Positions 52,201-55,200 of a stretch of 64,000 bases of DNA are shown here, in pieces. This DNA comes from Saccostrea cucullata (taxonomy: Eukaryota): the NCBI RefSeq assembly GCF_032062105.1, contig NW_026927402.1, positions 124,001 to 188,000 of the forward strand. Direction: 5' to 3'. Position 1 is the stretch's first letter, and every line of letters starts with the position of its first letter. The notes beneath the pieces were generated by a model, which had not been told where the DNA came from, ran no database searches, and was given only the letters and a program-made list of their open reading frames with translations. A program made the position numbers and the translations under genes.

Positions 52201-55200
52201 CAACCTAGAAGTTCATGAACATGTAAAAGTACAACCCAGCTGTTCATGAACATGTGTAAGTTTAACCCTGAACAGAGGTGGAATTAAAAACAATTCTCAA
52301 GTTACAATGCACTTGATGATATCCTTGCTGACTTTGAGCGTGTTTCTATTTTGACAGTATTTGGTAAAGATACTGATGTATGTCTTAACTTTACATTTCT
52401 ATTTTGACAGTATTTGGTAAAGATATTGATGTATGTGTTAACTTTACGTTTCTGTTTTGACAGTATTTGGTACAGATGCTGATCAGCCCGGTTTAGATTT
52501 GTCTGAGTTCCCCACACTGGGAAACAGGAACCTTCCCTCCACGCCGATTTCTTCTGTCAGAAATTACGGTCAGTATGGTGGTAGGTGTAAATATGTGTCC
52601 ATTACAGGGGGTCAAGGTCACTTTGGCATTGATAAATTTGGGGCTTGGAATAATATACAATGTATTTATATTAAAAGAGAAAGAGAATATTTGGAGACGA
52701 GAATGAGGATTTTAATTTATTGTTATTTAACCTTTTTTTCAAACTGGAGCTGCCAAGGTGACAATTTTGTGGATCATGAAAAATTTTAAAGGTTATTTTA
52801 CTGCCAAAATGACCCATCCTTCTGTTATTAAACAAGTCTCCAAGATTCATTTATGTGCTAAAAGAAAGCTGCTCTTTTGTATGATAATTTGATTGTAGGA
52901 TCTTAGTTTAAAAGAACTCATTGTATGCCATATCCTAAGGATTAAATGTTTTAGAATTATTTTCTTTCAATAAAAAGGTAAAATGATTGGCAGACATTTT
53001 TGTATTGATTTGTTAAGTCCAAGATGTTATCATTGAAATACTACAGAGCAACAAATATTTAATTTAACAGAGATTTTAGAACTAGGAACTGTGAGAATCA
53101 TTGAAAATGTAAACATAACTTCACCCTGTGTACTATTGGTATCTTGAGTTTTGTTGTCTTGTAGTCGGTATGGTTAGTAAACCTGTTGCGGAGACTGCCC
53201 CTGAGTTCCAGATCCAGCAGGAGGACTTCCCCGCCCTCCCCGGGGCTCCTGAGTTCCAGATCCAGCAGGGTGTGATGGAAATCCGTATTGGGCCCCGCCC
53301 TCCCCGGGGCTCAGAGTAAGACTGAATATATTTGTGTGTCTGTACTTTGTTTTAATCTTAATGCATGTAAAGTTTTCCTTCTATTGAGATTGATAAAGGC
53401 TGCAAAAGAATTGCACTTATATTTACATAGCATCTCATAGATTTTCATAACAGTTGTGATACCTTTGGTCTCCCTGTTATTTTTTTCAGATCCACCCTCA
53501 AGTGTATCAAATGACACAGCCAGGAAAACGGTGAGTCCATATTTCATATTTATATAACAATGGTGTGTAAAGAACAAGGTACGGTTTCAATACAAATATT
53601 GCCCTGTGATTTTCTTAAACTTGAAACTGATGTAAAAAATGAAAGCTCATGCTTTCTGAAGTATTAAAATACCAAGCAGAAAAATCAAACAAATCGTTTT
53701 TCTCACATGCATTGCTAAATGCTAATTGTGATGTCATAAACATGTGCATTTTTCCTTTATTCTCTTAAAAAGTTGCAGAAGATAGCAATTTTCACTGGAA
53801 TTTTCCTTCAGATAATACTGTCCACAGGCATCGCCCAGAAAGATTTTGAGATATGTGATTTTTTTTTAAATTTTACACAACATATCCAAAAAATAAAGTG
53901 GGCAACGGCTGTGGACACTTTTTTCTGATGGAAAATTACTCTTGAAATGGGTCATTTTGAGGCTTGTCTGTTAAAAATAGAGAAATGCATCAAATTACTG
54001 ACTTCATATTCCCAGAATGGTACTTCATACCATATTCTTTTCTGATCTATCATAGTCATAAACTCAACTAATACTAGAGCCAGTTTCAAAATTTGTTGAC
54101 AAATTTTTAGGGCACAATAAAGCTAAAACTGTACCTTCTTTAGTTAATGTATATTATGTATTTCTTAGTCAAATAAATTTTCTTTGATCAGAATAAGGTC
54201 CAGCAACAAGCTATATATACAGTAGGGAAGTTAAGAATTATGTTTTCATTCAATAACTTAATTTACATAGAACTGCATATATATTTGTACATGAAAACTG
54301 CAGGCAATTAATATTCTGTCCTAGGTAAAATAATTAGGCACCTTTATATTTTAGATTTTGTCAAGTTTTTGCATGATTCTCAGTGACAATAGCAGTCTTC
54401 AGTCATTTTGTTTCCTCATGAAGTACTTATTGTTGCCATTATGTAAGATTGACCAAAAAAATTCAAATTCAAATTTTTTTTCAGCCTACAAGTGCTTCAT
54501 CCTCATCGTCAACAAATGAACAAATTTTGAAAGATGGGAAATTTCCCGGCGACAAGGCGAACCAATCAAAACAAGGCATACAAACACATGCAGATGGTTA
54601 GTTGGACTTAGTTACAGTGAATAAACACTGTGTTTTAAAGTTGATTTATATGAAATCATAAGACATTTTTGTAGAGAATTCTATCTAAAAATACTGTATT
54701 CGTATGTCATAATTAATAATTAGAGCATTATACAAATGTACTACAAAACATTACAAAAAATAAAGTTTGCAGACATTTACAGAGTATTACAGATATTAAC
54801 ATTGATTTTCCATGGACTATTTGTATAAAAATCAGTTCAAGTTGCATATATTTCTTTAATACTTGTAATTAATTTTAATTCACTCAGGTAGAATTTGAAA
54901 TGTAATTTTACTCTCAAAAATATTCACTATTGAACAAATGGTTAGAAGTCTGCTATAAATTTTTGTGCAAGAAATATCCACAAGTTTCACATCATACATT
55001 AACTTGCAAATAATAATTGCTGTGAAACTTTCTTTTCTTTGTATTCTTAAAGAATCTTCCTGAGTTGTGAAAAATAATCATTGTGGATGGACTTCAAAAT
55101 GACAAAAATCACAAAAGATAACACAATTAATACATGTAGTTGGTTTACAGTACTGTATACAGGGCTATTTTCGCCCCATGTTTTTTTCGCCCTTTCACAC

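What the first reader, a model, noticed from the sequence alone, without database searches (positions are those of the whole stretch)
53198..53320. Frame-breaking 64-nt duplication in a CNOT2 exon, apparently rescued by a newly created donor
Seen: the 48-nt unit encoding PEFQIQQEDFPALPGA is duplicated, but in copy 2 GAGGACTT is replaced by 24 unrelated nt, adding 64 nt in total. The ancestral-looking donor CAGA|GTAAGA (53315) is now phase 2, whereas the next exon (53490) needs phase 1, so its use gives a TGA within that exon. The foreign filler creates CAGG|GTGTGA at 53269, which is phase 1 and yields ...PGAPEFQIQQDPPSS. Inference: either splice-site turnover caught in progress with a residual poison donor, or a recent loss-of-function allele of a conserved gene.
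Basis: partly seen in the sequence, partly recalled or inferred. Interest (0 to 1): 0.7.

Follow-up and report, generated by a model that had tools for sequence, protein, structure and literature searches.

The report
Repeat-patched duplication breaks oyster CNOT2 allele
The assembled copy of an oyster's CNOT2 gene carries a 64-base local duplication patched with a scrap of a common repeat, and no RNA set checked contains it, so it is likely a rare, mostly broken allele (or an assembly slip) rather than a new splice site taking over.

Summary
The anatomy is real. Exon 10 of the single CNOT2 copy of a rock oyster has 64 extra bases (53249-53312). The old donor (53316) then gives a stop at 53512; a GT at 53270 would restore frame.

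New here: the filler is not random. It is 28 of 30 bases of one arm of a high-copy hairpin repeat (587 hits, control 0), joined by 4-nt and 1-nt microhomologies, and the 'new donor' lies wholly inside it.

The rescue has no support. All 7 RNA-type runs laid show only the insert-free join. One sample has an allele with no difference from the window over 141 exon bases, yet without the insert. The new donor matches the U1 consensus at 4 of 11 positions, against 6 for the intact old donor and 6-9 for 15 native donors. A public model (P0122) uses 53269, but no transcript source holds it.

Verdict: private repair-scar allele, mostly loss of function (0.50); assembly error (0.30); rescue by the new donor (0.15); exon skipping (0.05). 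No insert-bearing reads were found, so donor choice is untested.

The parts
46251..62598 (+). CNOT2 gene, 17 coding exons, the only copy found in G000
   Evidence: tblastn of P0001; exon chain equals P0122; PF04153 at residues 422-547; one match each; the second PF04153 hit is a distant paralogue
53165..53315 (+). Exon 10 as assembled (151 nt; 87 nt, phase 1-1, without the insert); encodes the second FPxL motif
   Evidence: acceptor used in RNA-derived contigs
53200..53248 (+). Original unit: 22-nt block, 7-nt spacer, 20-nt block (PEFQIQQEDFPALPGA)
   Evidence: covered with 0 differences by one allele of X5, X6, X7
53249..53312 (+). The 64-nt insert: second 22-nt block, filler, second 20-nt block
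   Evidence: not seen in any laid run
53266..53293 (+). Repeat-matching patch: 23-nt filler 53270-53292 plus 4-nt left and 1-nt right microhomology; 28 of the 30 nt of one arm of a hairpin repeat, 2 nt lost in an A run, ending at the loop edge
53267..53275 (+). Candidate new donor (GT at 53270), in frame, weak, carried in whole by the repeat arm
   Evidence: 4 of 11 U1-consensus matches, weight-matrix score 0.64; use not observed
53282..53290 (+). Second in-frame GT (53285), very weak
   Evidence: score -6.46, 3 of 11 matches
53313..53321 (+). Ancestral donor (GT at 53316), intact, out of frame on the insert allele
   Evidence: 6 of 11 matches, score 1.99; the join it makes is seen in 7 of 7 RNA-type runs, on insert-free alleles
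53490..53530 (+). Exon 11; TGA at 53512 if the ancestral donor is used on the insert allele

Best explanation
The 64-base insert is likely a recent, private DNA-repair scar in one CNOT2 allele, and that allele is predicted to keep splicing mostly at the intact old donor, which would give a premature stop. Shown: the duplication, the repeat origin of the filler, the short microhomologies, the stop at 53512 with the old donor, and insert-free alleles in all RNA-type runs laid. Inferred mechanism: one repair event with three template switches. Synthesis ran to the end of the 20-nt block, jumped back 48 nt (1-nt match), copied the 22-nt block, jumped to a distant repeat arm (4-nt match), copied 23 nt to the hairpin loop edge, and returned to the 20-nt block (1-nt match). 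Inferred effect: the stop in exon 11 of 17 would trigger nonsense-mediated decay or cut off the NOT-box domain. A minor in-frame product from 53269 may leak through, so the allele would be null or hypomorphic and carried beside a working allele that is not in the assembly.
For: Copies are exact, so the event is young. The filler matches a repeat with 587 hits at up to 1 mismatch, control 0. No template lies in the 264 kb examined of the 298-kb contig. 7 of 7 RNA-type runs (at most 5 samples, 3 studies) show only the insert-free join: 21, 36 and 22 reads in X12-X14, contigs in X5-X7 and X11. Depth arithmetic leaves no contig on 53266-53296 in X5-X7, and X11 has depth 0 there. 1 of 170 proteins fetched has the doubled motif, and it is the model P0122. 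The new donor has fewer U1 matches than all 15 native donors and than the old donor. The other 16 exons are open and in frame. [quoted passage not shown]
Against: No read carrying the insert was found, so its existence in an animal is not shown. On the small weight matrix the two donors are close (0.64 against 1.99) and 2 of 15 native donors score lower than the new one. A random 23-nt filler gives an in-frame donor that good only 3% of the time. No second, intact haplotype is in the assembly.
Confidence: 0.5

Rival explanations
1. The insert is an assembly or consensus error (or a chimeric or mosaic molecule), and the animal's CNOT2 is normal.
For: Sample S2 (X5-X7) shows two alleles, one with 0 differences from the window over 141 exon nt in X5 and X6 and 105 nt in X7, and neither has the insert. 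If that sample were the assembled animal (not determined), the insert could not be germline. The site is a G+C-rich homopolymer stretch. The assembly is in 23,869 contigs.
Against: Noise does not write a 28-of-30-nt piece of a distant repeat, and joins on 1-4 nt of overlap are not what overlap or k-mer assemblers make (own knowledge). The other exons are clean. Small local duplications are real in this gene: a DNA contig of another organism covers 52400-52603, 1.6 units of a 53-nt repeat, without gaps.
Confidence: 0.3
2. The allele is real and rescues itself: the repeat-derived GT at 53270 takes most of the splicing and gives a protein six residues longer, leaving the old donor as a poison site.
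For: The frame works and equals the public model P0122. Only 3% of 20,000 random fillers give an in-frame donor of that matrix score. 8 of 111 longer homologues carry 7 extra residues at this very junction, so the product would probably be tolerated. The copy-1 FPxL motif is kept.
Against: No junction observed. P0122 is held by NCBI and UniRef only, on one contig, with no transcript-assembly source. The old donor is intact and stronger. 29% of random fillers give some in-frame, stop-free GT and 21% one with 4 or more U1 matches. 23 of 32 short hits read ...Q/T/S-S-K/E straight after the motif, as read-through of a donor at the old place would give (inference), so no turnover is seen elsewhere.
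Confidence: 0.15
3. The allele is real and escapes by skipping exon 10 altogether, giving an in-frame 529-aa protein without the second FPxL motif.
For: Skipping keeps frame. One Magallana gigas model, P0007, lacks this exon.
Against: No skip join among the contigs. P0007 is a single-member UniRef model. Both splice sites of the exon are intact.
Confidence: 0.05

Closest known systems
Class 2 templated sequence insertion polymorphisms (Onozawa and Aplan 2016, PMC5110952; abstract and outline seen)
   Same: A patch copied from a distant genomic region sits at an apparent break site; no poly(A) tail.
   Different: The patch is only 23 nt and comes with a second, locally templated patch and a 20-nt duplication; described in humans; polymorphism among individuals is only indirectly shown here.
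Manufactured splice rescue (Haque et al. 2024, PMC10853237; abstract and outline seen)
   Same: One mutation both breaks the frame and offers a new donor upstream of the damage.
   Different: There, nonsense substitutions (0.61-2.57% predicted) give small in-frame deletions; here a duplication plus a repeat scrap would give a 6-residue gain, and donor use is not shown.
Public gene model XP_062612659.1 (P0122, CNOT2-like, named Saccostrea cucullata by the source)
   Same: Letter for letter the window's exon chain with the 53269 donor.
   Different: An automated model, probably on the same DNA; such a pipeline keeps the frame open with or without reads (own knowledge), so it is not independent evidence.
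FPxL / RACK1-interacting motif of ZAK, SERBP1, LARP4 (PMC12823453, 7 passages; bioRxiv 10.64898/2026.08.26.747346, 2 passages)
   Same: The duplicated unit holds an FPxL motif; the preprint lists CNOT2 among subunits with predicted motifs.
   Different: Copy 2 lost the motif's F and is out of frame, so the motif is not doubled; binding was not tested.

Membership tests
CNOT2 | C-terminal NOT2/3/5 domain | tested here: met
   PF04153 at 422-547, E 1.1e-37
CNOT2 | Orthology along the whole length to named CNOT2 proteins | tested here: met
   92-100% identity exon by exon to P0001; last exon 78% to vertebrate CNOT2
Class 2 templated insertion | Inserted sequence templated from a distant locus | tested here: met
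   28 of 30 nt of a repeat arm; none in 264 kb of the own contig; the exact 23-mer occurs only here, so the source copy is not identified
Class 2 templated insertion | No poly(A) tail or retrotransposon-type target site | tested here: met
   Sequence; junction overlaps of 1, 4 and 1 nt
Class 2 templated insertion | Present in germline DNA and polymorphic | tested here: inconclusive
   Insert-free alleles seen; no insert-bearing read found
Manufactured splice rescue | The damaging variant itself supplies an in-frame donor at or before the damage | tested here: met
   GT at 53270 gives an open 564-aa chain
Manufactured splice rescue | The new donor is used in mRNA of the allele | tested here: inconclusive
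   Junction not seen, but no carrier RNA was laid
Manufactured splice rescue | The new donor is predicted to outcompete the old one | tested here: not met
   4 against 6 U1 matches; 0.64 against 1.99 on a 15-site matrix; crude scores, no deep splice model on hand
Splice-site turnover (fixed donor shift) | Old donor decayed and new donor fixed in the lineage | tested here: not met
   Old donor intact; an allele identical over the exon bases covered uses it
Intron gain by tandem duplication or introner insertion | The inserted bases are removed exactly as a GT-AG intron | tested here: not met
   A clean 64-nt removal must start and end inside the 20-nt block, which holds no GT and no AG

The most novel reading that the evidence does not exclude
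A single repair event copied a splice donor out of a transposon-like hairpin repeat into the exon it was breaking, so the mutation carried its own frame rescue: a natural, one-step, repeat-donated splice rescue in an essential single-copy gene, with the old donor left as a poison site.
Probability: 0.15. Interest if true: 0.4.

Novelty: new member of a known kind. Interest (0 to 1): 0.15.

Why it matters
As it stands it is one allele, or one assembly slip, in one animal. Its practical lesson is that an automated gene model (P0122) hides a frame break by choosing a weak donor that no transcript seen here supports. If carrier RNA did use 53269, it would be a tidy example of a distant repeat supplying a working splice site during repair, and a test case for how new donors arise under decay surveillance. 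It would not be a new kind of system.

Tried and rejected
Second haplotype or paralogue in G000: none by DNA, exon protein or pattern (the 2-mismatch hit L059 has no CNOT2 similarity).

Local template for the filler: nothing of 11 nt or more elsewhere in the window, and one 12-nt match in 200 kb of flanks. About 34 kb of the contig was not fetched.

Transposon-end footprint: rejected, because the filler comes from inside the element's hairpin arm, about 45 nt from the conserved edge.

Insert removed as a new intron: rejected (see membership test).

X12-X14 as a test of donor choice: rejected. All their reads differ from the window at 53175 and 53226, so they are another lineage. One search showed 15 joints and left out 89, so absence there is weak.

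Paper searches: searches gave listings only, apart from the papers cited. One search found nothing. One search gave 9 listings, none on how this assembly was built. One search (CNOT2 and oyster) gave 2 listings, neither on this allele by title or opening of abstract. No supplements were read; they could hold splice-junction tables. Earlier-finding look-ups near the site and by words gave nothing. No fold or complex job was sent.

Full report
Observation. The window holds a 17-exon CNOT2 gene (46251-62598, + strand) of a rock oyster: exons are 92-100% identical to the Saccostrea echinata protein P0001, and PF04153 lies at the C terminus. It is the only copy found in G000; the other PF04153 hit is a distant paralogue. 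In exon 10 a 22-nt block (53200, 53248) and a 20-nt block (53229, 53293) are each present twice, exactly, and the 7 nt between them are replaced by 23 nt in copy 2. The net insert is 64 nt. With the old donor the chain stops at 53512, after 337 residues, in exon 11 of 17. With the GT at 53270 it is open for 564 residues, with the GT at 53285 for 569, and with the exon skipped for 529.

The ancestral state. Oyster orthologues read ...DFPALPGAQNPP. Of 170 proteins fetched, 137 have the motif and 1 has the doubled form. That one, P0122, equals the window's chain with the 53269 donor letter for letter. It is held by NCBI and UniRef only, on one contig, with no transcript-assembly source. I read it as an automated model of the same DNA (inference), not as support. 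Of 32 short hits, 23 run on ...S-K or ...S-E, as read-through of a phase-1 donor at the old place would give, so that donor position looks conserved (inference).

Reads. Eight of 24 listed runs were laid. X12-X14 (raw RNA) join 53248 to 53490 in 21, 36 and 22 reads; the three bases between, shown for X13, are those before the old donor. These reads differ from the window at 53175 and 53226 throughout, so they are another lineage, and the joint table was cut (15 shown, 89 not). X5-X7 (one sample) are labelled DNA by guess but cover exons only and join across introns, so I take them as RNA-derived. They hold two alleles. One has 0 differences from the window over 141 exon nt (X5, X6) and 105 nt (X7), and two 30-nt loose ends match neighbouring exons exactly. 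The other has 4-6 differences in 79 nt. Both run from 53248 straight into the insert-free join. The bin depths are fully explained by contigs that stop at 53248 and resume at 53297-53298, so nothing covers the filler. X11 shows the same join. Contigs drop rare variants, and whether any run comes from the assembled animal was not determined. So the insert is not fixed in the window's lineage, but its use of donors was not tested.

The filler. The exact 23-mer occurs once in G000, with two 1-mismatch hits. Its 19-nt core has 587 hits at up to 1 mismatch, control 0. Thirty of these were fetched; most show one arm of a hairpin about 155 nt long near the end of a longer element. Window 53266-53293 matches 28 of 30 consensus bases, lacking 2 nt of an A run, and ends at the loop edge, where several other copies also break off. 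The joins share 1, 4 and 1 nt. No template lies in the 264 kb examined of the contig. The 9 nt of the 'new donor' are all in the repeat arm: the donor was imported, not made by the junction. The family name of the repeat was not determined.

How it likely arose and acts. The layout fits one repair event with three template switches (inference). It works like a class 2 templated insertion (PMC5110952, abstract); polymerase-theta-type joining is the usual candidate (own knowledge; listings only). The new donor has 4 of 11 matches to the U1 consensus (consensus recalled), the old donor 6, and the 15 other donors of the gene 6-9. On a matrix from those 15 the scores are 0.64 and 1.99, with native leave-one-out scores from -2.42 to 7.13. 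So the old donor is predicted to win, giving a stop far upstream of the last exon junction and loss of the NOT-box domain. [quoted passage not shown]

Against this reading. A random 23-nt filler gives an in-frame donor with the new donor's matrix score in only 3% of 20,000 trials, although 29% give some in-frame GT and 21% one with 4 or more U1 matches. Eight of 111 longer homologues (the named ones are clams) have 7 extra residues at this junction, so a +6 product would probably work. The unit holds an FPxL motif, a RACK1-binding motif in ZAK and SERBP1 (PMC12823453, passages) that is predicted in CNOT2 (bioRxiv 10.64898/2026.08.26.747346, passages); the rescued form keeps it. An assembly error remains possible because an allele identical over the bases covered lacks the insert and no read shows it.

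Verdict. Real in the assembly, private, repeat-patched, and probably damaging (0.50) or artefactual (0.30). Rescue by the new donor 0.15, by skipping 0.05. The closest named idea, manufactured splice rescue (PMC10853237, abstract), is already in print. Interest 0.15.

Noticed in passing
window 50464-50520, 51672-51815, 52343-52483: Three more short local duplications copy splice sites of CNOT2: an exon end with its donor, a 65-nt unit with a donor (2.2 copies), and a 53-nt unit with an acceptor (2.7 copies). A DNA contig of X1 covers 52400-52603 without gaps, so the last is at least partly shared.
   Followed up: partly
window 52568 and 52580: Exon 9 has two phase-1 donors 12 nt apart, both seen in RNA-derived contigs, matching the long and short isoforms P0001 and P0123.
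   Followed up: partly
window 53170-53248, runs X5-X7 and X11: One sample holds two CNOT2 alleles that differ at up to 6 of 79 exon bases; X11 shows only the divergent type. Possibly cryptic lineages, a hybrid or pooled animals.
   Followed up: no
L007-L036 (G000): A repeat family of several hundred copies with a hairpin about 155 nt long near one end; several copies break off at the loop. Not named.
   Followed up: partly
P0009-P0013, P0020-P0022: Eight CNOT2 proteins (the named ones from clams) carry 7 extra residues at the exon 10/11 junction, several from transcript assemblies.
   Followed up: no
window 57745-58890: Seven copies of a 166-nt satellite inside CNOT2 intron 15.
   Followed up: no
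P0007: A Magallana gigas CNOT2 model lacks exactly this exon, in frame; single-member cluster.
   Followed up: no
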